Positions 40,019 through 62,314 of a stretch of 64,000 bases of DNA are shown here, in pieces (position 1 is the first letter of the stretch; each line of letters begins with the position of its first letter). Source of the DNA: Prorocentrum cordatum (Eukaryota); contig CAUYUJ010000048.1 in assembly GCA_963575745.1 (NCBI GenBank), positions 558,001-622,000 on the forward strand, read 5' to 3'. A program made the position numbers and the translations under genes. A model generated the notes under the pieces. That model did no database searches, had not been told where the DNA came from, and was given only the letters and a program-made list of their open reading frames with translations.

Positions 40019-41128
40019 ATGGCGGGGAGCGGCGGCGTGGGTGCTGGGCGTGGGGGAGGCGGCCGCGCGGCGTGGCCTGCGAAGTGGAAGTGCTCGGTGT
40101 GCGACTACTACAACTTCGCCGAGAGGGCGTGCTGTCGCAAGGGGTGCCAAGCTGCGGAGTGGCCAGCGCCGCGGCAGCTGGGCGCCTTTCCTCCGCTGCG
40201 GGGGTGGCCTGCAGGCGGCGGCGGTGGTGGTGCTCCTGGCTGCGCTGGCGGCGGGCGCGGCGGGCGTGGGGCAGGCGGCGGCAAGCCTCCCACACGTGCC
40301 CCGTGGTGGCGAGGCGGAGAAGGTGGCGGCCGTGACGCTGGTGGCGCCGTGGAGCTCAGCGAGGAGCAGCGCAGTGGCTTCGTGTGCATGGCAGAGGCCG
40401 ACTTCGCCCTCTCCGCCGCGCTCCTGGCCCCGAAGGTCCGCGAGCAGCTTCTGCAGGCACGGAGGCTGCGTGAGGGCGGACTGGGGGCCGAGCTGTCCAA
40501 GGACAAGACGGTCAAGGCGGCCCAGGTGCAGGCGGACGCCTAGGTCTTGCAGGTCAAGAAGTTGGAGGGCCAGCTGGAGCAGGCAAAGGCCAAGGCGGTG
40601 GCGGCCATCAACGAGTCGGCCAGCCTCGCGGACAAGTTGGTGCTGCTGCGGAAGGAGTGCGACGAGGCGGCGGCCAAGGCACGCGAGGCGCTGGCGGCTC
40701 AGCGCACCAGGGTGGCGGCCGAGGAGGCTGAGGCGGCGACAGCAGCCGCCGAGCCGAGAGCAGCACCAGCAGCCTCCCTGGAGTCGATACAGGAGGCGAT
40801 CGGCGGCTTGTCGAGGGACGAGATCGCGAAGCTCGGGAAGGTGCTTGCGGAGCTCAGCGGCATGCCAGGCGCCGCCGCCGCAGCGTGGGCGCCTCCCCGT
40901 GCGCCTGTGGCAGCGGCGGTCCTTGTGCCCTCGGCGGTGCCAGCAGCAGCGCAGCAGGTGGACGCTCCCAAGGAGGAGGGGCCTGGCGTGTCGCAGGCGG
41001 CGCAGCAAGCGTGGCAGGACATCACGTGCGGGATTGAGGACCCCGCCAAGAGGGAAGCAGCGGAGCAGTTGCTGGGCGACGCCAAGAAGATGCGGACGGA
41101 GGTCAAGCAGATGGGGGAGGAGTCCTAG
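40019..41128 (+). pseudogene. LINE ORF1: Gly-rich N-terminus, RanBP2-type zinc finger and coiled coil; one in-frame stop
   Basis: ATG 40019; WKCSVCDYYNFAERACCRKGC fits W-x-C-x2-C-x3-N-x6-C-x3-C. TAG at 40541-40543, then the same frame continues (QVKKLEGQLEQAKAKA...) to TAG 41126-41128. Confidence 0.8.
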
Positions 41129-41144
41129 CAAGAAGTGTGGGGTC

Positions 41145-43307
41145 TGGAGGATCTGCACGGTCAACGTCAATGCGTTCAGCAACCTGGGAAAGTGCATGGC
41201 GGTGAGTGAGGTGCAGGACTGCGACGCCATACTAGTCCAGGAGACGAGGCTCCTGGAGGGAAGGAGCAGTGATGCGGAGGCGCAGCTCCGCAGCCAAGGG
41301 TGGCGGGCGAGAGGCACGCCTGCAGTGCCGTCAGCGGCAGGAGGCCTCAGCACAGGAGGCCTCCCCACCATGGTGAGGAGGAGCCATGGCATGGCGGAGG
41401 TGCAGGACCAGCAGGCAGCGGTGCTGGTGGCAGGGCGAGTGCACCTGTGTTGGGTGTCAGGCGTGCTGAGCAGCGGCTTCTTGCTCGCCAACCTCTACCT
41501 GGAGGCGGGGGTCGGCCTCAACGATGGCAACGTGGCCAGCCTCAGGAGGCTGGCAAGGAGGTTGAGGCAGTGCCGCAGGGACTTCGTGGTGGGCGGCGAT
41601 TGGAACCTCACGGAGGAAGAGTTGCAGGCAGGCGGGGTGCCCGACATGTTCGACGGCGAGGTGGTCAGGCCCGCCTCGCCCACGTGTGCAGCGTCGGGGA
41701 GGACCATCGACTTCTTCCTGGTGCCCAGGGGGCTGGCTGCGCTGGGTGTGCGGGTGGTGGAGGCCTCGCCAGTGTGCCCGCACTCGGCGGTGATCCTCGA
41801 GATCCGCAGGCAGCAAGAGGAGGAGCGCTTCAGGCTGGTCCAGAAGCCGCGGACCTTTCCTGAGGTTCGGCCGCAAGGGTGTTGTGAGAGAGACCACGGC
41901 AGCAGCTGGAGGCAAGCCAGGATGAGGGTGCAGGAGCAGCTCGCGTCGGTGCTGAGGTTCGAGGGTGAGGCCGCAGCGAGGAGCACCCCACGTGCTGAGG
42001 AGGAGGCCCCTCAGCCCAGCAGCAGTGGTGGCGCAGCAGGCCAGCGCACAGCTAGAGCTGGCCAGGAGATTCCCAGGCCAGTGAGGGGCAAGGGAGCTGA
42101 AGGGGTGTCTGCGGCGGAGAGATGGGGACCACTAAGCAGCGTGCTCCCGATCGCACCTGCGCCGCCGTCCTGCGTGACGGACGTGAATCTGATAAGGTGC
42201 TGCGCCCAGCATGGCGAGGAGTGGCAGAGCATCCTCGACAGCTGCGGGCTACGGCGAGAAGTTGGCGCGGAATGGCTCGGCGCTGCACCAGGCGTTGAGG
42301 ACCAGCCAGCGCACCTCGGGGCCCTGGCGCCAGGAGCGCAGGGCACCGACGCAGCGGAGAGAGGGGGCAGCAGCGCCGCGGGCAGCGCTGTGCAGGAGGC
42401 GCAGGCGGACATCCCTCCCCATGCTGGGACTGGCAGTGCACCTCCGAGCCAGGCACCGTACGGAATCGCGGGTTGTCCCTTTCAGGTTGATGCGGCTGAA
42501 GGAGTGCACGTGAGGCCCCCCAGCCTCTGGGTCGAGAAGAGGCAGGCAGCCTCTGCCGCTGAAGAGGAGGCCCCTCAGCCCAGCAGCAGCGGTGGCGCAG
42601 CAGGTCAGCGCGCAGCTGGAGCAGGCCAGGAGCTTCCCAGCCCAGCGAGGGGCAAGGAAGCTGAGGAGGTGCCTACGGCGGAGAGATGGGGACCCCTAGG
42701 CAGAGTGCTCCCGATCGCACCTGCGCCGCCATCCTGCGTGACGGACGAGAAGCTGATGATGTGCCGCGCCCAGCATGGCGTGGAGTGGCAGAGCATCCTC
42801 GACAGCTGCGGGCTACGGCAGGAAGCTGGCGATGAAGGGTACGGCGCAGCGCCACGCGGCGAGGTCCAGCCAGCGCACCTCGGAGCTCAGGCGCCAGGAG
42901 CGCATGACGCCGACGCAGCGGAGAGAGGGGGCAGCAGCGCCGCGGGCAGCGCTGCGCAGGAGGAGCAGGCGGGCAGTCCTCCCTATGCTGGGACTGGCAG
43001 TGCACATCCGAGCCAGGCACCGTACGGAAACGCGGGTAGTCCCTTTCAGGTTGAAGCGGCTGAAGGAGTGCACGTGAGGCCCCCCAGCCTCTGGGTCGAG
43101 AAGAGGCAGGCAGCCTCTTCGGCGGGGCAAGCCCAGCGCCTGCAGCAGGACGGGCAGGCCCAGGGCGCGGCGGCGGATGGGGGCTAAGGGAGCCCTCACA
43201 GCCGCCTTCGCCACCTTCCTGGAGTGCGCGGAGGACGAGTGGGTCGACGTATACCAGCTGGAGGAGCAGAGGGCCAGGTACGTTGGCAGAGCGGACGGCT
43301 TCTCCAC
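41145..43307 (+). pseudogene. LINE ORF2 N-terminal part: EEP/APE-like endonuclease (~41145-41800), duplicated insert and frameshifted linker
   Basis: Motifs TVNVN, ILVQETRL, NLYL, FVVGGDWN, RTIDFFL and PHSAV occur in canonical order. The frame stops at 43187; a different frame carries ALTAAFATFLECAEDEWVDVYQLEEQRARYVGR up to the gap. Confidence 0.85.
41994..43121 (+). repeat. Tandem in-frame duplication of 564 bp (188 codons) inside LINE ORF2
   Basis: GCTGARGAGGAGGCCCCTCAGCCCAGCAGCAG begins at 41994 and 42558; both copies end in ...GTCGAGAAGAGGCAGGCAGCCTCT. Confidence 0.95.
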
Positions 43308-45716: not shown

Positions 45717-46706
45717 CTCATGATCACAAAACGCTGCCAGGGGCATCACTTGGGAGCCCCAAGGGGGAGCCACCCTGGCTGATCTCACGAGCCCGTTCGC
45801 GCCGATTTTGGTGGGACGTCTCAGCTAAAATTGCCGTTTGGCCTCCCCAACATGTCTCTCTTGAGAGCCTCATGGTCACAAAACGCTGCCAGGGGCTTCA
45901 TTTGGGAGCCCCAAGGGGGAGCCACCCTGGCTGATCTCACGAGCCCGTTCGCGCCGATTTTGGTGGGGCGTCTCAGCTAAAATTGCCGTTTGGCCTCCCC
46001 AACATGTCTCTCTTGAGAGCCTCATGGTCACAAAACGTTGCCAGGGGCATCATTTGGGAGCCCCAAGGGGGAGCCACCCTGGCTGATCTCACGAGCCCGT
46101 TCGCGCCGATTTTGGTGGGACGTCTCAGCTAGAATTGCCGTTGGCGCCCCCAACATGTATCTCTTGAGAGCCTCATGGTCGCAAAACGCTGCCAGGGGCA
46201 TCATTTGGGAGCCCCAAGGGGGAGCCACCCTGGCTGATCTCACGAGCCCGTTCGCGCCGATTTTGGTGGGACGTCTCAGCTAGAATTGCCGTTTGGCGCC
46301 CCGAACATGTATCTCTTGAGAGCCTCATGGTCACAAAACGCTGCCAGGGGCATCATTTGGGAGCCCAAGGGGGAGCCACCCTGGCTGATCTCACGAGCCC
46401 GTTCGCGCCGATTTTGGTGGGACGTCTCAGCTAGAATTGCCGTTTGGCTTCCCCAACATGTATCTCTTGAGGGGCTCATGGTCACAAAACGCTGCCAGGG
46501 GCATCATTTGGGAGCCCCAAGGGGGAGCCACCCTGGCTGTTCTCACGAGCCCGTTCGCGCCGATTTTGGTGGGACGCCTCAGCTAGAATTGCCGTTTGGC
46601 TTCCCCAACATGTATCTCTTGAGAGCCTCGTGGTCACAAAACGCTGCCAGGGGCATCATTTGGGAGCCCCAAGGGGGAGCCACCCTGGCTGATCTCACGA
46701 GCCCGT
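45717..46706. repeat. Homogeneous tandem satellite, 151-152-bp unit, ~6.5 copies
   Basis: Units CTCATGGTCACAAAACGCTGCCAGGGGC... start at 45717, 45869, 46021, 46172, 46324, 46475 and 46627. Confidence 0.97.
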
Positions 46707-46984: not shown

Positions 46985-47023
<39 letters not shown>

Positions 47024-47078: not shown

Positions 47079-47110
<32 letters not shown>

Positions 47111-47189: not shown

Positions 47190-47280
<91 letters not shown>

Positions 47281-47446: not shown

Positions 47447-47519
<73 letters not shown>

Positions 47520-47539
47520 GAGAAGAGAAGAGAGAGAGC

Positions 47540-47572
<33 letters not shown>

Positions 47573-47816: not shown

Positions 47817-48289
47817 AGCTCAGTCACACTTGAATCCAGATTCGTCCTCACCGAGTCCCACCACCAAGGGAGCGCCAGCAAGGGGATGCACATATGGGGA
47901 TCCCCACGCAGTGAATAATTGTTTCGTCCATGTTTGCCGCTGTTTTGATTATGTTTTTGGTGGGCGATCATCGTGCAACGTTGAATCGCGGTCGCGAAAC
48001 CGCGGGGCGGGCGCCCCCACCCTGGCCCGAATGCTTGGGCGAACGGGAGGGGGCGCCGCGCGACGCGCAGCGGCGCGGGGCGACGCGTGCCCAAGCGTTG
48101 GGTGCGCGACGTCACGAAGTCCGCCCTGCTTGCATGGGCGAGCGCGCGAGGGGGGGCGTGCGCCGCCCAGGGTTGGGAAGGGCGTCGCGCACGCACGGTT
48201 GGTCGGGGTGTCCCGCCACGCTCGGCGAGGGGCACCTGCGGTGCGTGCGGGTGCCGTCGCGCGCTTGCCCATGTAACGTGCAATGCCTG

Positions 48290-49200
48290 GGCGCGGCACC
48301 CCGCACGTGTGAGTCGCGCGTCCTCGGCTCACTGGTGGCCGCTGCTCCGCGCGTGCGTTGCGCGGTCTGGTTCTTCGTGGCGCGGTCTGCCCCTTTGTGG
48401 CACCTGCACGTGCCAGGCGTGTGTCCACGTGTGGGGCGCGCGTCAGGCCCTTGGTGGCACGTTCTGCCCGGGTGTGGCACCATGCGCGTGTGAGGCGTGC
48501 ATCCTCGGCTCATCTGCGGCCGCAATTCGGCACGTGTGAGGCGTGCGTCTGGCCCTTGGTGGCACGTTCTGCCCGGGCGTGGCGCGCCCGTGCGTGGCAC
48601 TCTGCACGTGTGAGGCGTGTTTCGTCGGATCATCAGTGGCCGCAATTCCGCACCTGTGAAGCGTGCGGCTGGCCCTTTGTGGCACGTCTGCCCGTATGTG
48701 GCACGCCCGCGCGTGGCATCTTGCACGTGCGAGGCGTATCCTCGGCCCACCGATGGCCGCAACTCCGCCTGTGTGAGTCGCGTGTCTGGCCCTGCGTGGC
48801 ACGTTCTGCCCGTGCGTGGCACGCCCGCGTGTGGCACTTGAACGCGTGAGGCGTGTTTCCTCGGCTCATGTTGGCCGCAACTCCGCACGTGTGAGGCGTG
48901 GGTCTGGCCCTTCGTGGCACGTTCTGCCCGTGTGTGGCTCTTAGCACGTGCGAGGCGTGTGTCATTGGCTCATTGGTGGCCGCAAATCTGCCCGCGCGTG
49001 GCGCGTGTCCGGCCCGTTGTGGCACGCTTCGCCCGTGCGTGGCATCTTGCACGAGGCGTGTATCTCGGCTCATTGGCGTCCGCAACTCCGCCCGTGTGAG
49101 GCGCGCGTCTGGCCCTGCGTGGCACGTTCTGCCCGCGCGTGGCCCCCGGCTCACGCGATGCGTGCATCCTCGGCTCACTGGTGGCCGCAATTCCGCGAGT
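48290..49200. repeat. Diverged tandem repeat of ~104-120 bp, rich in GCACGT/CACGTG, upstream of the DIRS-like element
   Basis: Anchor GGCCGCAAYTCCGCAC recurs at ~48518, 48638, 48755, 48873, 48977, 49078 and 49183. Confidence 0.85.
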
Positions 49201-49286
49201 GGGAAGTGACGCGCCACGCCCGCGTCGTCCGCGCAGCGCGCAGCTGATCAGCGGGAGAAGTCAGATTTCGCATTCGCGCGGGCATC

Positions 49287-50810
49287 ATGGCCGCTTCGAC
49301 GTTTCCTGGTTGGGCGGCCAAGGCCAAGTCCGAGGCCCCGCGAGGGGGTGAGTTCTACAGGAATTTGGCCGAGTTGCTCACTGGGCCCACGTGCTCGAAG
49401 TGGATCCGAGTTCGCTGAAGGGCCTCGACTCAGCTGGAAAGGTGGGCGCTCGACGCGCGGCGGCTGCTGGCCTGCCGATGCGGTCTGGCAGGCGGGATGC
49501 GCCAAGGCATTGGCCCGTGCGGCTCGCGAGCAGAAAGGCCCGGGCCAGGCGCAGCTTGCGCCAGCTGCAGTGGATCTGCCCCGCCTCGCGGAAGCGCTGC
49601 GCTCCACGCGCGAACCGACCGCCGAGCACGTGGCGATTGGGCCCGCCATCCGCCGCGCGGGAGGTCGCAGGGTTGAGGGTTGCGCGTGCGTCGCTGGGCG
49701 TCGGCGCGCCAGGCGCCGCCCTTGCAGCCATCATCTGCTGCGGTCGACGCCCTGGGGGCCCGAGCAGCAAAGCTCCAGCGCGAGGGCGTGGCCAACCCAT
49801 GGGCGCCGCCAGACCTCAAGGCGCGATCGCTCCGCGCGCGCCCGCGCGGCGCGCCCCGTTGGCGCGCGCGGAAGGCTTTCCTGCCGTTCTGGGCTTCGGG
49901 CACAGCGCAGGGGGCGGAGGCGGACCCCTCGGCTGCTGGGGTCCAGAAAGGGCCGCTGCCGTTCAACCAGTGGCGCCCGGCCTTTCATGCGCGCGCGGCC
50001 GCGGCAGCGATCTTGGACGACCAGCCGAGCTCCATGTCACTTTGGTGTCATAAGCAGCACGTGGTGCAGGTGCTTCCTGCCCGAAACGCACGGCGGCGCG
50101 GCCCCGCGCTGGCGCGGCGCAGGTGGCCGCGCGTGCGAATTCGCCTAACGATCGGCCGCGCCTGGCGTCGCACGTCGACGCGGCGGCGCGCCGCTCGTGG
50201 GCAGGGAGATCCAGGGCGGGAGACCCGACCTTCGAGGCTCTGCGACGCGCGTGTGTTTTTGCGCCTGGCCCGGCCTCCGCCTTGCGTTGAAGGTGAACCG
50301 CGCTGCGCAGACGCGGGGCGAGGGCTTGCTGCGCGCGGCCGCAGCCGCGCGCGACGCGGCGGAGTGCAAGCGAGCGAAGGCATCGACACCTCGCCAGGAG
50401 CCCCCAGCGGGGAGCGACCGCGGAGGCAAGGGAGGCCAGGCGAGGACTGCCGGGGCGACTGGCACCCGGCTGCGGGGTCTGCCGCGAGCGGGCACCGCGG
50501 CGGCTGGGGCAACCGCGGGAGCTGGAACGCCGGAAACCAGAGCGGGGGAAAGTGCGAGCGGTCCAGCAAAGGGGACCGCGAGGGCAAGAGCGGCAACCTG
50601 GCGGCACCGAGGACGCCCGAGCAGCGCGTCAAGCGCCCGCGAGGCGAGTTCAGAGTCGCGGGGGGGCCACGCCTGCCGACCGCGTTCGCGCCGCTCGCCA
50701 GGCATCGGGCCAGTGCAGAGCGCGATGGAGGAGCCAGCTGCCCAGCGAATGAGCGCTGCCGCGCGCGACGTGAGTGCCGGGGGGCGATGCGAGACTCCAG
50801 ACCGCGCTGA
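49287..50810 (+). pseudogene. Putative gag-like ORF of the DIRS-like element (fragmented)
   Basis: ATG 49287 (MAASTFPGWAAKAKSE...) and frameshifted coding-like segments (KLQREGVANPW, FLPFWA, PLPFNQWRPAF) directly upstream of pol. Assigned by position only. Confidence 0.45.
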
Positions 50811-50879
50811 CAATGTGCAAGGGGAGGCGCAGGCACATTCTGCGCCATTGCTGCATGAGGCGTCATCGGCGGGCGCAGC

Positions 50880-52790
50880 CGAGGACATGCCGAAACTCGA
50901 ATTCACGCGCGGCGCGTTGGGATCTGACCACGCGCAGCCGGCTTTCCCTGTTGCCGATAAAGAAATTCGCGGCATCTTCGCGCGGTCCGCGGCGTCCGGC
51001 CCCTGCGATGTTGCGCGCGCGAGGGGGTGTTGGATCCGCGAGATTGAACGCCTTGGCCGCTCGTTTGAAGACAGCGGCGAGGCGGAGGAATGGCGCAGGC
51101 AGGCGCCACCGCAACTCGAGCAGATTATTCGCAAAGTTAACGTCCCGTTGCTCCGTGCGCTCGTAGCGCGGTCGGAATACGGAGACACAGGCGTTGTGCA
51201 TTGCTTCGCGGAGGGCGCGCCAATCGCGGGAGCGCCGCCGTCGACGGGGACTGGCATTCTCGCGCAAGGGGCGCCTGCCCGGACGTTGCCGCACTGCGCT
51301 TGGGCGCGGTGGCGCATAACCAAAAGATTCTAAGCCAATGCGCGAATCCGAGGGGGCGAGCGCGCTCCTAGAGAAGACGCGCGAGGGCGCTAGTCTAGGG
51401 CGAATGTCGCGGCCGATTGCTTTTCTGGCGTCGGCGACTGCTGCCGAGATCGCGCGAGTCGTCGGCGATGACGCGCGTTTGCTGCCGAGATTTCCCGCGG
51501 CGCAGCGCAGGCCAGATGGGGGCGTCAAAATCCGGCCCGTCGATGACGGCACTCGCGCCAGCATTGCGGAAGCGACGCTGCCCGGGGAGAAACTTGTCGT
51601 TGACGGGGTCGCTCGTGTGATTGCGGCGCGCCGCGCCTTCTTTGAAGCGCGCGGCGTGGCGCCGGCCCTGTGGAAAGCGGATATTGACGCCGCGTGCAGG
51701 CGCATCCCGCTCGCCCCAGGCCACGCGTGCGCGGCGTGGAGCGCATTCCTGGCGGGCGGCCGTCCGTGGGTCTCGCAGCATTATGCGCCCCCCTTTCGGA
51801 GCGTCTGGGTCCGTGCACGGTCGGGGCCGAGTTGCCGCTTTCCTTCGGCGCGCAGCGCGGCGTCTGCCGCGGACCCCCGCGGGGCGGCATGTCGACGATT
51901 ACTTTGCCCCTGATGCCGCGAAATCGGCAGCGCGTGCCATGGAAGTTTTCGCGCGGCTGGCGCGTGCCATCTTTGGGCCCGGCAGCGTTGCCAGCGGCAA
52001 GCTCGAGTGGGGCAACGAGCTTGTCTTGCTGGGGGTTCACTCCGCCTTCTCCGGCGCGGGCGCCAATTGCGCCCCGTCGGAGGACAAGGCGCGCAAGTGG
52101 GCTGGCGCGATCACTCGCGCGCTCGAATCAGGAAAACTCGAGCCGGGCGCGGCGTCGAAGCTGGCCAGGGCACTATCCTGGGCCAGTCAGTCGCTGTCCA
52201 AGCGGCTGGGCAGAGCTTTTCTGCGACCGTTATTCGCGCAGCAGCACGGCTGCGGCTCTCGCGTCAAGACTCCGCTGCGCATAGCGTTCGAGTGGTGGCG
52301 CGAAGTGCTGGGCGCGGACAACAACGAAGTGGCGGAGTGGACAGCCCGCCCTCTGGACGCGGCGCATTTGTTTGCCGATGCGCGGAGCACCTCGCCGCGC
52401 GCGGCGGCGGCGCTGTTCGCGCACGACCGAGTGGCACACAGAGTGGGCGCCGGACGCCGCGGCGTTGCGGCTGTTCGGGCAGCGCGGCGACAATCATATT
52501 ATGAGCCTGGAGCTATTGGCCATCGCTGTGGCCATGTCGTCTTTCAGACATCTGTCGTCGAACCGGCGCTAGAGATTTTTCAGACAACCGCGGAGCAGAG
52601 CAGGCGGTGGCGCGAGGATCCGCGCGCCATTTTGACCGCGCCTGCCTCGTGCACGGGGCATGAGCGCTGGCTGCCGAAGTCTCGGCATCCGCGTGGGTCC
52701 ATCGGGCGCCCTCGGCTTCGAATATCGCAGATCCGCTGTCGCGGGAAGATTACGACCTGGTGCGCCGCTTGGGCGCGACTTGTGTAGAAC
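50880..52790 (+). pseudogene. DIRS-type reverse transcriptase and RNase H (frameshifted)
   Basis: RT motifs KIRPVDD, LWKADIDAACRRIPL, PFGASGSVH, HVDDYF (51888; YxDD site), LVLLGV and GRAFLRPLF. RNase H motifs LFADARST (~52368), IMSLELLAI (~52500), DN (~52583) and SNIADPLSR (~52718). Confidence 0.88.
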
Positions 52791-53579
52791 CCACGCTGGG
52801 CGATCGTTTCTTCGCCCCTCAGCAGTGGGCCTCCCTCGCAACGGCCCGCTGAGTGCTGCCGCCTGCTCCGGTTGGGCGGCGCGGGGGCGCGCGCGTCGCA
52901 TGCTTTCCCGCGCGAGCCTCGCAACGCGGAGACGCGCGGGGAGATGTTGGACGCGTCGATCTTCGCCCAGTGGCTTCGTGTGCGATTTGCGACGCCAGCC
53001 GCTTGCCTTCTTACGTCGAGCTTTTCGCGTATCTCAAATTGCAGAATGTGCTTCGCTGGGAGCATTTGGCAGACGTCGACGCCGACTTCAGTCGGCCTCA
53101 ACTATCACCGCGCAGCAGCGATGTAGTAACCAGGCGGCGCGCCCGCGGGCCGCTAACCACCGCGCGCTGTGCCCGCGTGAAGGGCCATCAACGAATCGAG
53201 GATACAGAGGGGCATGCTGGCTCTCGATGGGGTTCTCTTTCGGTCGGTACAAGCGTTGCAACGAAGCAGAAGCAGCGCCACCCGCGCGCCCCCCGGCCGC
53301 CGGGGCCCTGGCGGCGCATGGTGAAAGGCAGGATCGCCCGAGGCCAGATCCCCCCCCGGCCCTCCGCCCGCCGGCATTGGCGAGGGCGTCGCTGTGCGCC
53401 CGCAGCCTCCGCCGGGGCCGCCGCCAGGTTGGCGGCCGAGGCGCGGGGGCGATGCTGGGGCGACGGCGCCAGAACAAATGCGCGCGGCGTTGTGCCCTGG
53501 CGACGCGCACGGCGATCCTGCGGAGGGCTCGCGAGCTCGGGGAGCGGTCGAGGCCGTGGTTGAGTATGCTGTTTCGTGC

Positions 53580-54609
53580 GCAAACCAATTAAACGCGCCC
53601 AGTGAGGGGCCGCGACGCGCCCTCGACGGCGCCGCTGTAATGCGCCCGCCCGAACGCCGGCGCTTCGCCGCGAGGGCGCGCTTGGATGCGGCGCCTGGCA
53701 GTTGTCCTCGATCAGCGCAGAGCTGGGCGTCCGCAGCGCGATGGTGGTTACGCTTCTCAAAGTGCGTCCTTGGGCGGGATTCCCCCTTTCCCATCAGCGC
53801 GGGGGGCCTCCAGATCGCCAGTGCGCTGTTCCGCGCGAGCGGCACGTTCGCTAATTGCTGCGGGCACTCGCGCATGGCACCCGAGCTGTTCTCGGTGTCG
53901 ACGGCCGCCTTCGATGATCGCTCCGTGAAGCGGGCGCGATTGGGCGTCGCGAGGAGGTGCCCGACGTCCCCGAGAATCAAACGTTTTGTGCAGCACGCTT
54001 TCCTGTCCAGAATCGTTGAAGCGAGCGCCCCGGCCCCGGCGGCCGCGTCTGTCAGAGGAGACGTGGCGAGGCCCATGTGTTTCGGACACGTGTTTCCGTT
54101 GCGCCTACCAAATGAGGGCGTGACCGCTGTCTTCGATGGCTCGGCATTCAGCGAGCAGCACCGGGCATCGGTGCGCTTCTCAGCAGAGGCGTTAGGTTTG
54201 CAATTGCAGCGGCGCAAGAATTCGGAACGGCCTGCGGCAATTTGGCGCAAGTGCTGGCGCCGTACCGAGGGCGGCAAAAGGCGCGTGTCCAGCGCGCGTC
54301 TTCGGCGCTTTCTTCGAGAAAGCGGCACGCAGGCCTTCGCGAGCTCCTCTCCCGCGGACGCCGCGGCCGCCATCCGGATCGCGGCCGGGGCAGCGACAGC
54401 GCGCCCGGAGGAATTCGACGCGAAGGCGCTCCGCCGTGGACGCGCGCTCGACGTAGTCGAGACAGGGGCCGGCCCCGCCCCAGGCCGAGACACTTCGCGC
54501 GGGCGGCTGGCGGAGCGCTGCCTTCATAGATAATTTGCCCGTATAGTCTCTCAAGCGGGACGCTGGTCTCGAGGCCATGGACAATCGCCCTTCCGACAGC
54601 GATGCGTGA
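53580..54609 (+). pseudogene. Tyrosine recombinase (phage-integrase-like) of the DIRS-like element
   Basis: FPLRLPNE (catalytic R, 54102), LQRRKN and KALRRG (HxxR position, 54423); after a frameshift, RAGGWRSAAFIDN with AAT at the expected catalytic Tyr (54532). Acidic tail ends at TGA 54607-54609. Confidence 0.75.
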
Positions 54610-56575
54610 AGAAAAGAGACTGGGCTGTGTGCCTGGTGTGGCGCGCGCGCTGGCGCTCCGGCTCCGTGCCGGAGTATGTTGGACCATGTTTGCATATGTG
54701 ATGTATGCGTTTTATGGTTTGTCCATGTTTGCCTCTGTTTTGATTATGTGTTGGCATATGTTTCGATTATGTTGTGACTATGTTTGGGCATGGTTTGGTT
54801 ATGTTGTTACTTGCTGTCGCCCTCGCTCTGCCGCCGTCCCCTCTTTCCTCCTGCCCCTCCTCCTTTCCCTGTGCGTGCCGTTTCTTTCCGTGCTCAGCTG
54901 GTTGCTCCTGGTAGCCCTCCAGCGCGTCATGGCTTGGCGGCTCCGCCTCCTCGCGGATGTTGGAGTTTGGTCGGCCTTGACGCCGCAGGATAATCCGCAG
55001 CAGCCGCCGCAGGCCGTGACAGGGGGCGGAAATTCGCGCAGTTGTTCACTGGCGCTTAGAACGACGCTTTGGTCACATCGTATAGTTCTGACTATTGAAT
55101 TTACCGTTCTTGCCTCCTCTCCCTCCTCCCCGTTGTGCCGCGTCCTCTTCGGCTGTCCTCTCCCCTCTCCTTGTTTGGCGGGTAATTGCGCCCTTGGGCC
55201 TTCGGCCCGCGTGCCACACCAGAGGACTCATGTACCATATTATATCGACAGCCGGAGTGTGGAGCACTTCAGGCATGCAACATTATCCGGCCATTCGCTT
55301 CGCGGGATAAACACGTTTCACCCAGTATCGAGCGTGGCCGACACAATTTGTTGTCCGCTGGGTTGTTCTGGCTGGACCTCGGGGCCCATTTCACGGGCGC
55401 GGTGAGGTTGCCATTGGTCTGCTGAGTGGGTCGGCGCCCCCCTGGCCGTGGGGCGAGAAATAAACGCGGTTTCTGTTTCGTCCAAGATCTCCCTGTAGGA
55501 GAACATGCCCGACCTGACGACAGCTCGATGCTTGTCGCCGATGTCGACAGCGGTGCGCCGGGGCTCTCTGTGCCCCGCCATGCCCACCGGCGGGCAGCGG
55601 GCGCGGGCCTCGGGGCCCGCGAATCAGCGCCCAGTGCCAGCAAAGGCCACGGGCACAGGGGGTCGACTACGGGTGGGCGTAGGGTTACACACTGTTCACG
55701 TCTAGTTCTTCGGAAGGTCTTTCATACTTTTGGGGGCCAAGACCCTCTCGTTTCTAACTGTTCCATCCTGGGCCTCTTCCTGGCCACTGGGGGGCCAGGA
55801 ACAATTAGAAGCGAACCCAATCAGACATGAGCACGATGAGAAATGAACGACGCGCAAGTCTGGCACGCCGCCTCTACATCGAAGAGGGCGAAAACCAAGC
55901 AAACATATTTTTGTTGGCGCTCCGCGCGGAGTTTTTGGAACCGCGCCCGGGCCCAGTGGCGGCGCCTCTGGCGCCGCCCCTGGCGCGCCCCGCGCGCCGG
56001 GGAGGGGGGCCCAGCGCGAATCCCACAAATCCGCGCGGGGCGCCAAACATGCATGTTTATAGCGTTGTTTCTTTTTCTACTACAGGAGGATTTTGCAAAA
56101 ATACTCCAAGAATAATATGGGGACGATTGTGCGACTATCCACGCCCATTTCCGAGTGTGTTTTGATTATTTGAAAATTGTTCCTCCAAAAATTGCCTGTA
56201 GGGGGACATGCCCGACCTAAGACCATGGGTGGGCGTAGAATGAATGAAGGGGCGGTGAATGGGGGCGGGGAAACGTGCACCTGTCGTGCACCGTAGGTGC
56301 CCTAAAGGGGTCCCCTGGAGCCCAGGAATGGGAACGAAGGGCACCCGCCCCCTCGCCCCTGACGTTTCGCCCCCCACGATGTAACGCCCAATTGCTTCGG
56401 GTGCCCCCAAACGGTGCATGGCGGCGGCATTGGATGAGGAACGTCTTCGTGGGGCCCAGGCCCCGGCGCATTCCTCGTTGTTTCAAGGAAAGGTGGGTGG
56501 TCCAGATTTGCGCCCCATCGATGGCGAGACCCTGGGCTCCTTATCGAAGGTATCTTTATCTCAAACCTCCACCGG

Positions 56576-56597
56576 TCCGTAGCCATTTTTGTTCAAG
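56576..56597 (+). other. Relic dinoflagellate spliced leader at the 5' end of the second LINE
   Basis: TCCGTAGCCATTTTTGTTCAAG, 20/22 identity to DinoSL; ATG follows at 56601. Confidence 0.92.
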
Positions 56598-56600
56598 GTC

Positions 56601-57797
56601 ATGGAGCGTCCGACTACCGCGAGTCGTCCGCGGCGCTCAAAAGGCGAGGGGCTGCGGCGCTGTTGGCGGCGGCGGCGGGAATGGAGCGTGCTGTGTCTGC
56701 TCCTGCGGGCAGTTGTCCTGCGCAACCAGAGGGCGGCTCTTGGCTGCCACGCCGTTGCCCCGCCCTGGGCTCGGGCGCGAGGTTCGGCGGGCGACGGCCA
56801 ACCTGTGCCCGACGCTGAAGGCTTCGTCAAGGCGGGCAAGGGCAAGAAGGGGCGCCGCAAGGCCCGAGCCGCAGCCGCAGCCTGGGCCAGCAAGGCCGCG
56901 GACGCGGGCAGCAGCGTCGGCGGCAGCAGCAAGGGCAGCCCGAGTGGAGGCAGCCAGCCGAAAGGGGTCCCGCCTGGCGGAGCTGGAGCGAGCCATCGCC
57001 CACCTGGAGGCCTGCTCCAGCCTCGGCGGCGAGGGAGATGCTTTTGCGGCTGAGCGGCCGGCCGCCCGTCGTGCCAAGAAAGACCGGGCTGCCGCCGACC
57101 TGGCTCGCGACAAAGGAGGCCGGCCTGTCCCCCGCGGCACGCTTGCACGGGGCAGCCAACAGGGCCAGCAAGGCAGAGCGTTGGGCGGCGGCCGCACGCA
57201 AAGGCGCTCGAGGCGGCCGACGCCGCGGTGGCAGCAGCAGAAGAGGCAGCGCAGGCAGCGGCAGATCGGCTGGCGGAGGCCGAGGAGCGCCGCACCAAGG
57301 CACGAGAGAAGGTGGCCGATCTGGAGGAGGAGGCGGCAGCAGCGATGATCAAGCAGGAGCGGTTGCAGGTCTCGCAGGACGGCCTGCAGGCTGTGCGGGG
57401 GCTGTTCTTCCAGTTGCGGACCTTTCCGACGGCGCGCCAGGCGGGCAACATTGCTGGCGCGTGGCGGTCGACCACCCAGCAGTTGCAGGCAGTCGAAGGA
57501 CAATTTGCAGACCGCGAGAGTTCACCAGCCACCAGCGCCCGCGAACGTTGGAGCGACGCCTGCCCCGTCGATGGCGGCGAGCTCGACTCCGACTCAGACC
57601 TGGACCTAGCGGGCGGGGCGGCGCCAGCCGCTGAGCGCTGGCAGGTGGAGCGCCCCCCGCCAGCCTCGGGGCCGCGGTCCCGGGTGCCGAGGAGCGCTGT
57701 GCGCGAGCTGGTGGCAGAGGCGCGCGACCCAGGCCCTGTGACGACGGTGCCTTCGGGCCACGCTGCGGCGGCCGCTGGCGAGAAGCTGCAGCTTTAG
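56601..57797 (+). pseudogene. ORF1 of the second LINE (frameshifted; basic region and coiled coil)
   Basis: Segments EGFVKAGKGKKGRRKAR, LAELERAIAHLEA and AEEAAQAAADRLAEAEERRTKAREKVADLEEE in shifting frames; stop at 57795-57797. Confidence 0.6.
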
Positions 57798-57874
57798 CCC
57801 CGGCAGCACGAGGCAGTCTGGCAGAGCGTTCCAGCTCGAATTGGCCGAGGCGCTCCCACGAGCGGCATCGGCGG

Positions 57875-60800
57875 CCAGGTTGATCACGATCAACGGCTCC
57901 ACCCGGGCAGAGACCAGAACGGCGATCGAGCAGATCCGAGACGGGGGCGCCTGGGACGATGTCTTCCTGGTGCAGGAGACCCCTTCCACAAGGGCGTCCA
58001 CGACTTCTTCGGCGCGGAGCTGGTGTTCGAGGCATGGTTTTCCAGGCGGCTTTCGGCCCCTGCAAGCGCGCGGGCCAGCTGGCGCAGGAGGTCTCGTCGG
58101 GGGTCGGTGCCCTGACGGCGAGGTTCAGGGGGGCGGCGCAAATCGAGCAGGACTGGGGAGACCTCTCGCAACGGGCGATCGCGCGTCGGGTCGCCTTCGG
58201 CGACTTCGCGGTCGTGGTGGCCAGCGTCTACCTGGGACGCTCCACGAAGCTAGCGGGGGTCAACCTCGAGCTGCTCGGCATGGCCCAGGAGTTTCTCAAC
58301 GCCGCTAGCGAGCCCTTCGCGTGGCGGGAACTGGAACATGGAGCCGCAGGAGCTGTCGGAATCGTGGCGGCCTCGTTCGGTCGGAGGAGCAGTGCTTGAG
58401 TCGCCGCAGCCGACTTGCAACGGCAAGAAGTACGACTACTTCGTCGTCTCGGCTACGCTGACGGCGCTCGCGCCCCAGGTCGAGGCTATGCGGCCGACGA
58501 AGACGCACCCGCGCGCGCCAGTGCGTCTCTCCTTCGCGAAGTTGGGCGCCGCGGAGGTTCGTCGAGCAGAAGGTGTCCGCTGAGGCGAAGGCTCGAGCGG
58601 CTGACCTTGCCAAAGAAGTGCAGCGGCAGGCTCCCCTTCGGGATGCTCGAGGCCTTCCCGACGAAGCGGCGCGCGAGTTCGACGTGGCGGAGGCGCACCT
58701 GATCAGGCTGTTCGAGATTCAGGATGGCGGAGCCCACCGTGGCAGGTCTCGCGGCGTCCGCGCCCAGAAGCGCCAGAAGGGCCTCTGGCGCACCGAGACG
58801 GCCAGGAAGGTCAGCCCGCTCACAAGGCTCTGGATGTCCCTGCAGAGGCTCTCGAGGCAGTTGTCGGCGGCAGCAGCGGCGCTGGCTCCGCCGCCAGGGC
58901 ACCGGGCCCACATGGGGCATCTGAAGGAGGCCGCCCTCGCTCCGGCACCGCACTTCACCCAGCAGGGCTGCGACATGTTCGCGTCCGCGAGCACGCGGCC
59001 GCTGCTGGAAGAAGTCGAGGCGTCCACGCGGACACCGACTTCTTCTTGAGGGGCCATCCAGGCTGCCACAGGCAACCGCGCCAAGTCTTACACCCATCTC
59101 GCGCGGCGCCGCTGGGCGGAGTTTGTGGGCGACGCCCTGGCCGCAGGAGGCAGCGGAGCGCATGCAGCCAGCAAGCGGCAGCTCGAGGGGAAGTTCTGAG
59201 TCCTGGGCGAGGGGAGCCGGGCAGGGGCCCCGCCTGTCCCGCCGGTTGGCCAAGCCGCCCTGGACCAGACGCCAATCGAGCGGCTTTGGGTGGGCAGGAG
59301 GGCCGCCGATGCGCCGCGGCAGGGCAAGAACGCTCAGTGGACCTCTGCCGCCTGAGAGCTGGGCAGCGACCATGGACCTGCCTGCCGTCGCAGGGGGGGG
59401 GGGGATCGAGGCGGCCAAGACCCCCATCAAGAAGACCGCCTTGGGCTTGGACGGCTTCCACCCGCGACTGCTGCTGCGCTTGGGCCAACCGTTTGTGGCC
59501 CGCGCAGCGGCGCTGCCTTCGACCTGGGAGCGCGATCCCAGACCCCCGGGCCTCTTCGCGACGCTGATCGCATTCCTGGCGAAGCCCGACGGCGGCAGGA
59601 TGCCCATGGGTATGATGCCCTTCTGGCTGGGGCTGTGGAGTCGCATGCGCAGACGGCATTGCACCAGATGGGAGACCGACCACGAGTTGCCCGAGATCTG
59701 GGGCGGCAGCTCCGATACCAGCTGCGACAGGGCGGCCTACTTGCACGACCTCTACCTCGGGCTGGCGCGCTGGAAGGGCGTCGAAGGGGCGTCCGTCTAC
59801 TTCGATATCAGCAAGCTCCACGAATGGATTGATCAGCTGCTCCTCTGGGCGGCAGAGGCTAGCGGCTTCAGCCCTGGTCTGGCGAAGGCGCCCTGCGTTG
59901 CCCACGCGGGCCCCGGGCGCGCCGCGGTGGGCGGCGCCATCAGCGAGGAGATCTGTGCGAGAGGGTCGGTGATTGCAGGCTGTTCCTGCGCGACTACGAT
60001 GGCTCGTCAGATTCTGCACACGACTTGCTGTTTCGCGGTCGCGCCCTCCTCCAGGTTGGACGAGTGGTCAACCTGATCGACGATGCGGCGGCGCATGGCA
60101 TTCGGCGCGAAGCAGATCGCCAAATCAGCCAGTTCGCCACAGGGGTTGTGTCCATGCTGCGCGACAAACGCCTGCCCATCCACTGGAGCAAGACCAAGGT
60201 GCCGGCGTCGTCGGTCGACCTGCAGAGGGCGCTGCTGGCGCTGGAGGGCTGGCCGCTTCGAACCCGCGGACGCGTTCGCCCCGGGGCACCGTGAGCTTGG
60301 AGGCGAAGCGACTGCGGGAGCCCACCGCAGGGTGACCGCGCAAGTGGCGCTTGCAGCCCCGCGGCAGGCGCCTCGCCTGGGTCGGAGATTTGGCCCAGGG
60401 CTGCGACGAGCTAAAGTGGTGAGGGCAGGGCAGACGGCGAAAGCCCTCTGGGGCTCTGCTACCTCTGGAGCGCCGCCTGGCCGCGCGCGGGCCCCGAGGG
60501 TGGCGGCGGCCAAGAGTGCAGGACGGCTGGCCCCAGGAGCAGCGCTCAGCTTCGCGTTGCAATGTCCGCAGGTGGCTGGCGCCAGGACCCCCTGGTCATC
60601 GCGACGTGCATGGCTGTGCAGGCCTACGTCAGCGCGACCTGGGCGCGCCGGGCCTGCCCCCCCGCGATCAAGGCTTGCCTTGAGCCCAGCCTCAGGCTGG
60701 AGCGCAGCCAGAGGCCATGGTCGGCAGTGCGTGACCCTGTGGCGGCGCTGGCGCCCACCCTGAAACGCATAGGCCGGCAGCTTACGCGGGGCGGCCTCGC

Positions 60801-62314
60801 CATCAAGGACGAGCTGGGCGTCGAGTTCAACGCGCGGCGCTGGCCCCCCGCCTTCCTGTCAGAGCGTGCCCGCGAAGCGACCGGAAAGGCGGCCGCCAGG
60901 GAGGAGTGCCGCACGAGGACCGTATCGCTCTGGCCGTGGCGGCTGCCTCCAGCGTGGTCGCCAGTCAACGAACTGCTGGGCATGAGGACCACGGAGATCT
61001 GGACCCGCCACCACAAGGGCTGCCTGCGCTGGCTGGTCTCGTTGCCCCATTGACCCCTGGCGAGGCTCGCGAGGCGCAAGGCCGACATCAGCCCCGCATG
61101 CCCCCCATGCCATGGGGGGGGCAGGGGCGATGTTCCATCGGCACTTCGGATGCCCAGCCTGGCCGGCATGGAGGAGAGATCGTCTTCCAGCCGACTTGAG
61201 GGAAGGGGCTATCTTTGCTCGCAACCTCGGGGAAAGGTTCGGAGAGCCGTTCGCCCAGGGCCTCTTCGTCGACGCGGGCCCCGCGTTGAAGAGACCGCTT
61301 TGGCAGCCTCGCTGGGGGCGGCATCAGATTGGATGGGAGAGCCCCATGGTGGCGCCGCCTGGCACGCTGGTGTTCACGGACGGCCCCTGCATCAACAGCC
61401 GCTTCCCCGCCCTCCGCAGCGCGGGCTGTGCAGTCATTGCGATGTCTCAGGAGGGCCAGGTCTTGGCGCGAGCCTGGGGGGCGGTCCCGCCGCATGAGAT
61501 GCCCACCCAGTCAGCGAGGGCTGGTGAATACTATGCGGCTGTGGTTGCATTGGGGGAGACCATCGGGGCTCGCGAACTCCTCAGCGACTGCAAGGGCACG
61601 GTGGACTTCAACGGCAAACTGCAGCGTGCTCAGGGGCCGACCTCGCTGCGCGCCCACCTGCGGGCGCGGGCCGGCGACGCGGTCGATGGCGCCGCGGCGA
61701 GGCACATCCCAGCCCGCACCTTCGAGGCGGCGGTTCGGCTCGGCGAGGCCACGGCGAAGGAGAGGGGCGGGAACCGCCTGGCCGACCTCAGGGCCAAGAT
61801 GGGCGCTGGGCTCCATGCGACGGACGACGGCGACCTTGCGCTGCTCGAGGGTCTCCCAGCCCGAGCCCGAGACGCGGCCAGGTGTGCGGCAGGGATCGAG
61901 GTCCACATCACCGACCACGGGGCCAGGGACTACTGGCCGACGGAGGCGCTCGAGGACCTCGATTTCGGAGGGCCTGAGCGGGGGGCCAGCGAGCCCAGCG
62001 CGGCGGCAGGCGGCCCCCCAGGCGCGACGGCCGCCGCCGTGAACGCGGGTTCGGCAGCGGCGGCGGCCTCGAGCGCTGCGGAGCGAGGAGGCGGGGCGAG
62101 GGGGCGGCCCTCCTGTGCGGAAGCGCCCCGCGGCAGCGGCGTCGGCGAGCGCTTGCGGCCTGGGCCCGGCCAGCAGCTCAGCAGCCGCTACGCAAGTGGC
62201 CGACAGGGGGGCGGCCGCTCGGACCCAGTCGCCACCCGCGACGGGCGACAGCGCGGCCTTCGGTCAGCCGCCGCCGCCTGGAGCCGAGCCTTGGCAGGTC
62301 CCACCAGCTGGTGA
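57875..62314 (+). pseudogene. ORF2 of the second LINE: EEP endonuclease, reverse transcriptase, RNase H (multiple frameshifts)
   Basis: EN: LITING, VFLVQET, VASVYL, GGNWN, YDYFVVS. RT: TALGLDGFHPR, FLAKPDGGRMPMG, YFDISKLHE, GSVIAGCSCAT, LIDD (~60073), SKTKV. RNase H: VFTDGP, GEYYA, LSDCKGTV, GNRLADLRAKMGA. Confidence 0.88.

What the first reader, a model, noticed from the sequence alone, without database searches (positions are those of the whole stretch)
51600..61900. Old retroelements appear inactivated mainly by T>C / A>G changes, a possible 'reverse-RIP' mutational signature
Conserved residues are repeatedly replaced by codons one T>C or A>G step from the expected codon. In the DIRS RT: YxDD to HVDD (CAT 51888) and W to R (CGG 51822). 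In the second LINE: endonuclease catalytic H to R (CGC 58512; the first LINE has PHSAV), YxGR to HRGR (CAC 58735; the first LINE has TAC at 43279), RT KFY to KLH (CTC CAC 59816-59821), RNase H TDGS to TDGP (CCC 61385), W to R (CGG 61661) and H to R (CGC 61715). The DIRS copy is also visibly saturated with GCGC/CGCG compared with the young LINE at 41100-41950. This is opposite to CpG deamination and fungal RIP. Established: dinoflagellates replace part of their thymine with 5-hydroxymethyluracil. Inference: modified T in silenced repeats may drive AT>GC decay. Counter-examples exist (GGNWN ~58329, TAG 40541, AAT 54532), and the ancestral codons are inferred from family motifs rather than from an alignment.
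Basis: partly seen in the sequence, partly recalled or inferred. Interest (0 to 1): 0.78.

Follow-up and report, generated by a model that had tools for sequence, protein, structure and literature searches.

The report
GC-ward decay of dead dinoflagellate retroelements
Two dead retroelement copies in a GC-rich, dinoflagellate-like genome really have lost conserved residues mostly through A/T-to-G/C changes, but the evidence points to a general GC-favouring substitution process, not a repeat-targeted "reverse RIP".

Summary
Relatives confirm 7 of 9 inferred ancestral residues; 61715 is ambiguous and 58735 could not be aligned.

A systematic, outgroup-checked codon analysis shows the bias is real. 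In the DIRS-like copy, single-step replacements are AT>GC 53.8 against GC>AT 19.5, a per-opportunity ratio of 4.35 (95% CI 2.5-7.5). T>C and A>G rates are equal on the coding strand. The same method on 11 relatives from other hosts gives 0.67. LINE-2 shows the bias in transitions only (11.3 vs 6.0).

Nucleotide-level evidence does not fit a repeat-targeted hypermutation:
- The 40 best-supported changes private to the window copy are 13 AT>GC against 24 GC>AT, and third codon positions go 1 against 7.
- Non-retroelement repeats in the window give a ratio of 1.06.
- Both elements also carry frameshifts and stops.

Best reading: strand-symmetric, GC-favouring long-term substitution acting on sites released from constraint, in a Prorocentrum-like high-GC genome. 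A link to 5hmU is untested.

The parts
51212..52849 (+). Dead DIRS-like ORF1 (RT / RNase H-like), read in four frames: 51212-51790, 51792-52397, 52399-52557 and 52559-52849. In-frame stops at 51317 and 52661; a further one listed at 52570 lies outside the adopted frame chain.
   Evidence: tblastn of P0154/P0155/P0156 gives 62-82% amino-acid identity. P0154 has a weak Pfam RT_RNaseH match (E 0.003, below cutoff). Atlas neighbours carry RVT_1, RT_RNaseH and Dam.
53211..54606 (+). Dead DIRS-like ORF2 (tyrosine-recombinase-like). One frame switch near 54280-54480. Stops at 53322 and 54544. The conserved C-terminal Y is N at 54532.
   Evidence: tblastn of P0158-P0162 gives 55-68% identity for the main HSPs (59-77% by the BLASTP identities). 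Atlas neighbours have PF00589 on 27-29% of members, which is a lead only.
57850..62023 (+). Dead LINE ('second LINE') with endonuclease, RT and an RNase H-like C-terminus. At least 3 frame switches within the part aligned to P0003. Stops at 58581, 58602 and 60074 among others.
   Evidence: Colinear tblastn to P0003 (1624 aa; Pfam PF03372 and PF00078 above cutoff). 663 homologues of ORF 58925-60076 at E<=1e-3. The start near 57850 comes from reading the frame translations.
41121..41966 (+). Uninterrupted endonuclease domain of the 'first LINE', used as the unbroken comparison. No RT was found downstream in the window.
   Evidence: tblastn. Pfam Exo_endo_phos E 0.0011, below cutoff. GC1/2/3 = 0.64/0.51/0.84. 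At conserved columns AT>GC 1 against GC>AT 4.5.
48000..54600 (.). Compositionally distinct block: GC 0.68-0.71, CpG o/e 1.1-1.3, GCGC/CGCG about 2.1-2.6 times expectation. It holds the 118-bp satellite and the DIRS-like copy.
   Evidence: The 118-bp satellite gives AT>GC 15 against GC>AT 13, equilibrium GC 0.73.
21620..24372 (.). 163-bp repeat family (9 units), used as a non-retroelement control for the polarised spectrum.
   Evidence: AT>GC 31 against GC>AT 61, equilibrium GC 0.40.
45717..46706 (.). 152-bp satellite (6.5 units, 96% alike), used as a control.
   Evidence: 5 against 2.
32190..34400 (.). About 400-bp repeat family (4 units), used as a control.
   Evidence: 35 against 47.

Best explanation
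Region 51.2-62.0 kb holds a dead DIRS-like element and a dead LINE in a GC-rich genome that looks like a Prorocentrum-type dinoflagellate.

After they lost function, their formerly constrained first and second codon positions drifted toward G/C. These positions have GC2 of about 0.50-0.55 in intact relatives. The drift was driven by a strand-symmetric, DNA-level substitution process that favours weak-to-strong changes. I infer this is a fixation bias of the GC-biased gene conversion type, possibly helped by mutation bias. It is strongest over the long term and in this GC-rich block.

Third positions were already about 0.73-0.80 GC and do not rise. The most recent changes reflect a roughly balanced raw mutation spectrum.

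The elements were disabled by frameshifts and stops as well as by these replacements.

Shown: the direction, size, polarity and strand symmetry of the bias, and its absence from recent changes and from control repeats. Inferred: the cause (fixation bias) and that it is not specific to repeats.
For: 1. The bias on the window lineage is real and polarised.
- DIRS ORF1: AT>GC 27.8 against GC>AT 9.5, with 456 and 716 opportunities.
- DIRS ORF2: 26.0 against 10.0, with 365 and 577 opportunities.
- Pooled u/v = 4.35, CI 2.5-7.5.
- Using only outgroup-supported changes: 24.8 against 9.7.

2. The method does not create the bias. On 11 metagenome relatives it gives a pooled u/v of 0.67 (30.3 against 65.2). 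The unbroken LINE-1 endonuclease gives 1 against 4.5.

3. The process is strand-symmetric. Per opportunity, T>C is 0.099 and A>G 0.092; C>T is 0.017 and G>A 0.014.

4. In the DIRS copy, transversions are also raised (12.3 against 7.8, u/v 2.5). A fixation bias predicts this.

5. Codon positions converge. GC2 is 0.60-0.63 in the window against 0.49-0.56 in relatives over the same columns. DIRS GC1/2/3 is 0.705/0.609/0.728.

6. Recent changes are not biased.
- Window-private changes against X1 contigs: 13 against 24. By codon position: 10 against 11 at positions 1+2, 1 against 7 at position 3, 2 against 6 outside the mapped reading frames.
- Across all 1640 variant places: 672 against 686.
- Non-retroelement repeats: 86 against 123, u/v 1.06.
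- DIRS residue-level against the top 40: Fisher p = 0.0002.

7. There is regional heterogeneity. The satellite beside the DIRS copy has equilibrium GC 0.73, while the 163-bp family at 21-24 kb has 0.40.

8. The likely host's unique coding sequence is GC-shifted: CDS 65.9% against 54.2-60.8% in six other dinoflagellates, genome 59.7% (PMC10666404, passages).
Against: - The equilibrium GC implied for the DIRS copy is 0.81 (0.71-0.88 from the CI). This is well above the window mean of 0.63 and the published 59.7% genome mean. A uniform genome-wide process therefore cannot be the whole story.
- In LINE-2 the bias is in transitions only. Transversions go 1.2 against 4.8. A pure fixation bias does not predict that.
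- No unique neutral sequence from this genome was available. No genome is held, and no Pfam domain was found on the 100 window ORFs scanned (of 222 candidates).
- Only 40 of 1640 variant places were shown, and some may be strain polymorphisms or assembly errors.
- Meiotic recombination and gene-conversion bias have not been measured in this organism.
- The organism itself is inferred from a single named relative.
Confidence: 0.5

Rival explanations
1. Repeat-targeted A/T-to-G/C mutagenesis, the reader's 'reverse RIP'. Silenced repeats carry modified thymine (5hmU, possibly oxidised further to 5-formyluracil), or escape mismatch repair. T then mispairs with G on either strand and T>C / A>G transitions build up specifically in silenced copies.
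For: - Transitions carry most of the bias: DIRS transitions u/v 5.6 against transversions 2.5, and LINE-2 transitions 4.5 against transversions 0.6.
- Dead copies show the bias, while unbroken or functional relatives and the LINE-1 endonuclease do not.
- It is strand-symmetric, as expected for modification of both strands.
- There is a context enrichment. 22 of 40 AT>GC transitions create GpC (28% baseline) and 19 of 40 create CpG (35% baseline). GTG>GCG occurs 9 times. This matches the GCGC/CGCG excess.
- Literature, passages read: 5hmU is enriched on repeats and silences transposons in Amphidinium carterae and Breviolum minutum (PMC11572971, PMC11071213). 5-formyluracil mainly induces A:T>G:C transitions in E. 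coli (PMC7051996).
Against: - The youngest, copy-private changes in these same elements are 8 AT>GC against 16 GC>AT transitions (u/v 1.1, CI 0.4-2.8).
- Satellites and other repeats in the window give transition u/v of 1.2.
- Third positions lose GC.
- In A. carterae, repeats with high 5hmU are reported as less diverged, not more. In B. minutum no sequence motif was found for 5hmU (passages).
- No passage I read reports a mutational consequence of 5hmU.
- 5hmU has not been mapped in this organism.
Confidence: 0.17
2. Compositional change while the element lineage was still active, or an artefact of comparing with relatives from lower-GC hosts. On this view the replacements are a subfamily-level adaptation to a GC-rich host and not post-mortem decay.
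For: - 8 of 27 informative derived residues, including HVDD, are shared with the P. cordatum copy P0157.
- In the deepest-covered stretch, only 6 of 16 residue-level changes are flagged as private against X1 contigs (my comparison).
- The P0154 lineage moves the other way (GC>AT 8.5 against AT>GC 2).
- Relatives in other hosts have locus GC of 0.53-0.60.
Against: - Among changes at positions where nearly all outgroups agree, including catalytic Y, W and H, I count about 11 AT>GC against 4 GC>AT transitions by hand from the list. An active element could not tolerate these.
- 19 of the 27 derived residues are not shared with P0157, and these are themselves mostly AT>GC transitions.
- The unbroken LINE-1 endonuclease in the same window shows no such shift.
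Confidence: 0.1
3. RNA-level origin. Editing of retroelement transcripts (ADAR-like or dinoflagellate mRNA editing), or reverse-transcriptase or RNA-polymerase errors, become fixed in new copies through retrotransposition.
For: - Widespread nuclear mRNA editing is reported in P. cordatum (PMC10666404 passages).
- Some derived residues are shared between copies.
Against: - T>C and A>G occur at equal per-site rates on the coding strand (0.099 against 0.092). Editing or copying of one RNA strand should be asymmetric.
- Lineages that replicate through RT (11 metagenome loci and P0154) show u/v of 0.67 or lower.
Confidence: 0.04
4. Nothing beyond ascertainment. The reader picked A/T-rich conserved codons, and any change away from them looks like AT>GC.
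For:
- Conserved-site opportunities are not balanced.
- One example is ambiguous and one could not be tested.
- The H at 51816 turns out to be ancestral.
Against: - With opportunities counted explicitly, the excess persists (p = 2.7e-9 against equal rates).
- The same pipeline on 11 control loci gives the opposite tendency.
Confidence: 0.04

Closest known systems
GC-biased gene conversion / weak-to-strong biased substitution (as described in mammals, birds and yeast)
   Same: It is a strand-symmetric W>S excess. In the DIRS copy it is seen in transversions as well as transitions. It is stronger in older changes than in the most recent ones and varies by region.
   Different: It is not demonstrated here. 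There are no recombination or polymorphism data, LINE-2 shows it in transitions only, and the process has not been measured in dinoflagellates. The passages I read (PMC7299967) only raise it as a hypothesis for codon usage.
Fungal repeat-induced point mutation (RIP)
   Same: Dead repeated elements carry many transitions that destroy conserved residues.
   Different: The direction is opposite: RIP is C>T/G>A (from general knowledge). The changes here are not concentrated in the copy-private layer, other repeats are unaffected, and frameshifts and stops are also present.
5hmU marking and silencing of dinoflagellate transposons (PMC11572971; PMC11071213)
   Same: The same kind of organism and the same element classes. 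Passages name LINEs and Ngaro/LTR elements as 5hmU-enriched.
   Different: Those papers, in the passages read, report silencing and not mutagenesis. High-5hmU elements were the less diverged ones. Nothing here measures 5hmU.
Compositional relaxation of pseudogenes toward the host's equilibrium GC (GARP shift in GC-rich genomes)
   Same: GC2 and the GARP share rise in the dead copies (0.60-0.63 and 0.42-0.51) relative to intact relatives (0.49-0.56 and 0.34-0.41). GC1/2/3 converge.
   Different: The implied equilibrium (0.81) exceeds the local GC (0.68-0.70) and the recent-mutation equilibrium (0.51-0.55).

Membership tests
Non-LTR retrotransposon (LINE) with AP-type endonuclease | Reverse-transcriptase domain homologous to LINE RTs | tested here: met
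   ORF 58925-60076 has 663 homologues at E<=1e-3. The full-length relatives P0003, P0015 and P0017 pass the Pfam RVT_1 cutoff. The window ORF itself gives no Pfam match.
Non-LTR retrotransposon (LINE) with AP-type endonuclease | N-terminal endonuclease/exonuclease/phosphatase domain upstream of the RT, colinear with relatives | tested here: met
   58326-58754 aligns to P0003 residues 180-311, whose domain passes PF03372. The conserved D (11 of 11 relatives) and H (12 of 12) are replaced by N and R.
Non-LTR retrotransposon (LINE) with AP-type endonuclease | Intact ORFs, meaning a potentially active copy | tested here: not met
   At least 3 frame switches and stops at 58581, 58602, 60074 and elsewhere.
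Non-LTR retrotransposon (LINE) with AP-type endonuclease | 3' poly(A) or simple-repeat tail and target-site duplication | not tested
   The element's ends were not mapped.
DIRS-like (tyrosine-recombinase) retroelement | RT / RNase H ORF | tested here: inconclusive
   The relative P0154 has only a sub-threshold RT_RNaseH hit (E 0.003, 18.1 bits against a 24.8 cutoff). There was no PDB sequence hit. My model had pLDDT 35.6 and was unusable. Atlas structural neighbours have TM 0.71-0.74 to clusters carrying RVT_1 at 97-99%, one of them with Dam 26% (a lead). The YVDD motif is present in relatives.
DIRS-like (tyrosine-recombinase) retroelement | Tyrosine recombinase ORF in place of an integrase | tested here: inconclusive
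   The profile of P0158-62 finds no PDB chain at E<=1. The model had pLDDT 39.7 and was unusable. Atlas feature neighbours carry PF00589 on only 27-29% of members (a lead). The C-terminal GGWRS...Y motif was read from alignments, and its assignment to recombinases is from recall.
DIRS-like (tyrosine-recombinase) retroelement | Terminal repeats (inverted, or split direct repeats with an internal complementary region) | tested here: not met
   blastn of 49200-51250 and of 54600-55500 against the window finds no matching partner flanking the element at E<=1e-5. The copy may be truncated.
RIP-like repeat-targeted hypermutation | A directional transition excess acquired by each copy after duplication, so concentrated among copy-private changes | tested here: not met
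   The 40 best-supported window-private changes include 8 AT>GC against 16 GC>AT transitions. Only 40 of 1640 places were shown.
RIP-like repeat-targeted hypermutation | Affects repeated DNA in general and not unique DNA | tested here: inconclusive
   Non-retroelement repeats show u/v 1.06, which argues against it. Unique DNA could not be tested.
GC-biased gene conversion-type fixation bias | W>S excess in both transitions and transversions, strand-symmetric | tested here: inconclusive
   DIRS: transitions u/v 5.6, transversions 2.5 (CI 0.9-6.7), symmetric. LINE-2: transversions 0.62 on about 6 changes.
GC-biased gene conversion-type fixation bias | Stronger in old or fixed changes than in recent or polymorphic ones | tested here: met
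   u/v is 4.35 at residue level, against 1.21 for window-private changes and 1.06 for repeat singletons. The ages of these classes are inferred, not measured.
GC-biased gene conversion-type fixation bias | Correlation with local recombination rate | not testable with these tools
   No recombination map or population data were available.

The most novel reading that the evidence does not exclude
Silenced retroelement copies in this dinoflagellate undergo a strand-symmetric T>C / A>G hypermutation. It would be caused by enzymatically modified thymine (5hmU, oxidised to 5-formyluracil) mispairing with G, preferentially in G-T-G and C-A contexts. This would make it a mutagenic genome-defence by-product that mirrors RIP and helps drive the unusually high GC content of the genome.
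Probability: 0.15. Interest if true: 0.85.

Novelty: new member of a known kind. Interest (0 to 1): 0.42.

Why it matters
Mutation is A/T-biased in nearly all organisms studied, and dead transposons normally decay toward A/T. Here a dead element has demonstrably decayed toward G/C, with 3 to 6 times more weak-to-strong than strong-to-weak change per site. The genome appears related to Prorocentrum cordatum, whose high GC content has no established cause. The passage I read offers only a selection hypothesis (PMC10666404).

If the process is a fixation bias, this is indirect evidence for frequent meiotic recombination and gene conversion in a group where sex is hard to observe. If it is specific to repeats, it would link the abundant 5hmU of dinoflagellates to mutagenesis.

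Either way, the test on whole-genome data is simple and well defined.

Tried and rejected
- Whole genome: none is held, so there were no family consensuses and no unique-sequence control.
- Earlier notes of this scan: none.
- Pfam on 42 plus 14 stop-to-stop ORFs of 39-64 kb: no retroelement domain, even at E<=10. I rejected this as evidence against retroelements once HMMER and tblastn found hundreds of relatives.
- Pfam on 100 further ORFs (the 100 I passed from the list of 150 printed, out of 222 candidates): no host gene, so no in-window unique-gene control.
- Sequencing runs: no RNA holder is listed. X2 laid nothing and X3 only 21 short pieces.
- Metagenome scan for DIRS relatives: 12 loci at 32-65% identity (best segment). 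They were too distant for nucleotide-level polarisation, so I used them as outgroups and method controls.
- Close LINE-2 relatives: the best are 49-64% identical short fragments, giving only 15 differing columns. This is not independent.
- Structure prediction of the two DIRS proteins: pLDDT 39.7 and 35.6. No fold search was run on them.
- PDB sequence searches: nothing useful.
- Cluster look-up: only P0157 carries an organism name.
- Self-blastn for extra in-window copies of the high-copy stretches: too few to polarise.
- Using the aggregate 1640-place table as a polarised spectrum: rejected. Polarity is mixed, so it only shows that the window copy is not more GC-shifted than the other copies (672 against 686).
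- ADAR or RT-error reading: rejected on strand symmetry.
- CpG-creating context as the sole driver: 19 of 40 against a 35% baseline is not clearly enriched.

Full report
**What is there**

The window is 63% GC and rich in microsatellites and satellites. It has a 100-N gap at 43308-43407. No whole genome is held, and no earlier notes exist.

Stop-to-stop ORFs between 39 and 64 kb give no Pfam retroelement domain. The elements are real all the same.
- ORF 58925-60076 has 663 homologues at E<=1e-3 among 1.84 billion representatives.
- Region 58326-62023 is colinear with the 1624-aa protein P0003 across frame switches; the endonuclease start near 57850 comes from reading the frame translations. 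P0003 passes Pfam cutoffs for Exo_endo_phos and RVT_1.
- 51212-52849 and 53211-54606 match two sets of apparently intact proteins. Identities are 62-82% (P0154-56) and 55-68% (P0158-62, main tblastn HSPs).
- They also match a degraded gene model that its source names Prorocentrum cordatum (P0157).

The 'DIRS' label rests on leads only: a sub-threshold RT_RNaseH hit, and Atlas neighbours with RVT_1/Dam and with Phage_integrase. My own models were too poor to use.

The 'first LINE' is only an uninterrupted endonuclease domain at 41121-41966. No RT follows it in the window.

**The observation**

All cited codons are in place. Relatives support the inferred ancestral residue for 7 of 9 cases. At 59816 and 59819, every overlapping contig of run X1 reads T, which gives TTC TAC (F, Y). 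Position 61715 is ambiguous (H 6, R 4 of 15). Position 58735 has no aligned relative. The GCGC/CGCG excess in the DIRS block is real, at 100 and 92 against 40 expected.

**Systematic test**

For every codon aligned to columns where close relatives agree, I inferred the nearest ancestral codon. I then counted single-step changes against the number of possible nonsynonymous steps of each kind ('opportunities'). Below, u/v is the per-opportunity rate of AT>GC divided by that of GC>AT.

| Data set | AT>GC transitions / transversions | GC>AT transitions / transversions |
|---|---|---|
| DIRS ORF1 | 18.0 / 9.8 | 4.7 / 4.8 |
| DIRS ORF2 | 23.5 / 2.5 | 7.0 / 3.0 |
| LINE-2 vs family consensus | 11.3 / 1.2 | 6.0 / 4.8 |

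- Pooled DIRS is 53.8 against 19.5, with 821 and 1293 opportunities. That gives u/v = 4.35 (95% CI 2.5-7.5) and an implied equilibrium GC of 0.81.
- T>C plus A>G make up 41.5 of the 81 single-step DIRS changes.
- Twelve metagenome loci at 32-65% identity (best segment) serve as outgroups. They confirm 52 changes as window-derived, 24.8 against 9.7. They also show that one apparent change (H at 51816) is ancestral.
- The same pipeline on 11 of those loci gives a pooled u/v of 0.67. On the unbroken LINE-1 endonuclease it gives 1 against 4.5. So the method does not manufacture the bias.
- Per opportunity, T>C (0.099) equals A>G (0.092).
- GC2 and the GARP share are higher in the window than in relatives over the same columns.

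**Evidence against a repeat-targeted process**

- Laying the contigs of run X1 on 49250-64000 placed 2621 pieces, 253 of them at 99% identity or more. So other copies in the same or a very close genome are available.
- The 40 best-supported places where every contig differs from the window were listed, out of 1640. On the window lineage they give 13 AT>GC (8 transitions) against 24 GC>AT (16 transitions). By codon position the counts are 10 against 11 at positions 1+2, 1 against 7 at position 3, and 2 against 6 outside the mapped reading frames.
- Six of these places fall at codons that also appear in the residue-level list, and by my comparison all six agree with the intact relatives in polarity.
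- Over all 1640 places, the window has A/T where reads have G/C 672 times, and the reverse 686 times.
- Consensus-polarised singletons in four non-retroelement repeat families give 86 against 123. That is u/v 1.06, ranging from 0.65 at 21-24 kb to 2.8 in the satellite beside the DIRS copy.
- The residue-level DIRS spectrum differs from both of these data sets (Fisher p = 0.0002 and 3e-6).
- Of 27 informative derived DIRS residues, 8 are shared with P0157, including HVDD. The other 19 are not.
- Each element also has frame switches and in-frame stops.

**Interpretation**

The bias is real. It acts at the DNA level, is strand-symmetric, and belongs to the dead phase of the elements, because it holds at positions where nearly all outgroups agree. 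It is strong in older changes and absent from the youngest ones and from other repeats.

That pattern fits a fixation bias of the GC-biased gene conversion type, with regional variation, better than a continuing repeat-specific mutagenesis. The likely host also has GC-shifted unique coding sequence: CDS 65.9% against 54.2-60.8% in six other dinoflagellates (PMC10666404 passages).

Three things are left unexplained:
- The implied equilibrium (0.81) exceeds the local and genome GC.
- LINE-2 shows the bias in transitions only.
- There is a modest enrichment for GTG>GCG and CAY>CGY contexts.

These keep the modified-thymine idea alive. It is chemically plausible, because 5-formyluracil gives mainly A:T>G:C (PMC7051996 passages). 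It is biologically plausible, because 5hmU marks and silences dinoflagellate repeats (PMC11572971 and PMC11071213 passages). But none of the passages I read reports mutagenesis.

My searches listed no paper whose title or abstract start reports GC-ward transposon decay in dinoflagellates. That is two searches, not proof of absence.

**Limits**

- This is one window, with small counts for LINE-2.
- Only 40 of 1640 variant places were visible.
- Ancestral codons were inferred by parsimony from protein relatives.
- There was no unique-sequence control.
- The organism is inferred from one named relative.

Noticed in passing
window 55914-56038 (copies at 44071-44194, 9580-9705 minus strand, 6087-6171): A repeat of about 125 bp with an internal inverted structure. 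Contig joints on opposite strands fall at 55946/55978 and 55958/56003. It is extremely abundant in run X1 (summed depth 6841 in bin 55646-56137). It could be a MITE or introner-like element; P. cordatum is reported to be rich in introner elements.
   Followed up: partly
window 62534-63517: A second stretch with very high summed depth in X1 (784 and 258), with many loose ends at 62822 and 62876. It has no other copy inside the window.
   Followed up: partly
window 39888-43187: A 1099-codon open frame holds the endonuclease domain only at 41121-41966. Its last 1.2 kb is an internal duplication of roughly 170-200 residues. The scaffold gap follows at 43308-43407, and no RT was found. The 'young LINE' may be a truncated element or an endonuclease-bearing gene.
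   Followed up: partly
window 41100-41950: The unbroken endonuclease region has CpG o/e 0.66 and TpG/CpA o/e 1.47. The dead DIRS block has CpG o/e 1.27 and TpG/CpA 1.0. This is the opposite of what methylation-driven decay of old repeats would give.
   Followed up: partly
window 45717-47814: A 152-bp satellite (6.5 units, 96% alike) runs directly into a 1.1-kb (GA)n tract.
   Followed up: no
P0157 against window 51163-54194: This public gene model, named Prorocentrum cordatum by its source, aligns to the window's DIRS-like copy in several frames. It has GC2 0.63 and a GARP share of 0.49. It looks like a gene call over another degraded copy and not a real protein.
   Followed up: partly
window 51816: The close relatives P0154 and P0156 have Y here, but 6 of 9 outgroups have H, like the window. 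So this apparent Y>H is a change in the relatives, not in the window.
   Followed up: yes
window 36000-64000: All retroelement remnants (endonuclease ORF, DIRS-like copy, LINE-2) lie on the + strand, and cumulative GC skew rises steadily. This is consistent with a position inside a unidirectional dinoflagellate gene array.
   Followed up: no
window 1-38000: There are many long trinucleotide tracts, (CTC)n, (GGA)n, (GAC)n and (ATC)n, each of hundreds of bases, plus 21/32-bp minisatellites at 32-34.4 kb. No Pfam domain was found on any of the 100 ORFs scanned.
   Followed up: partly
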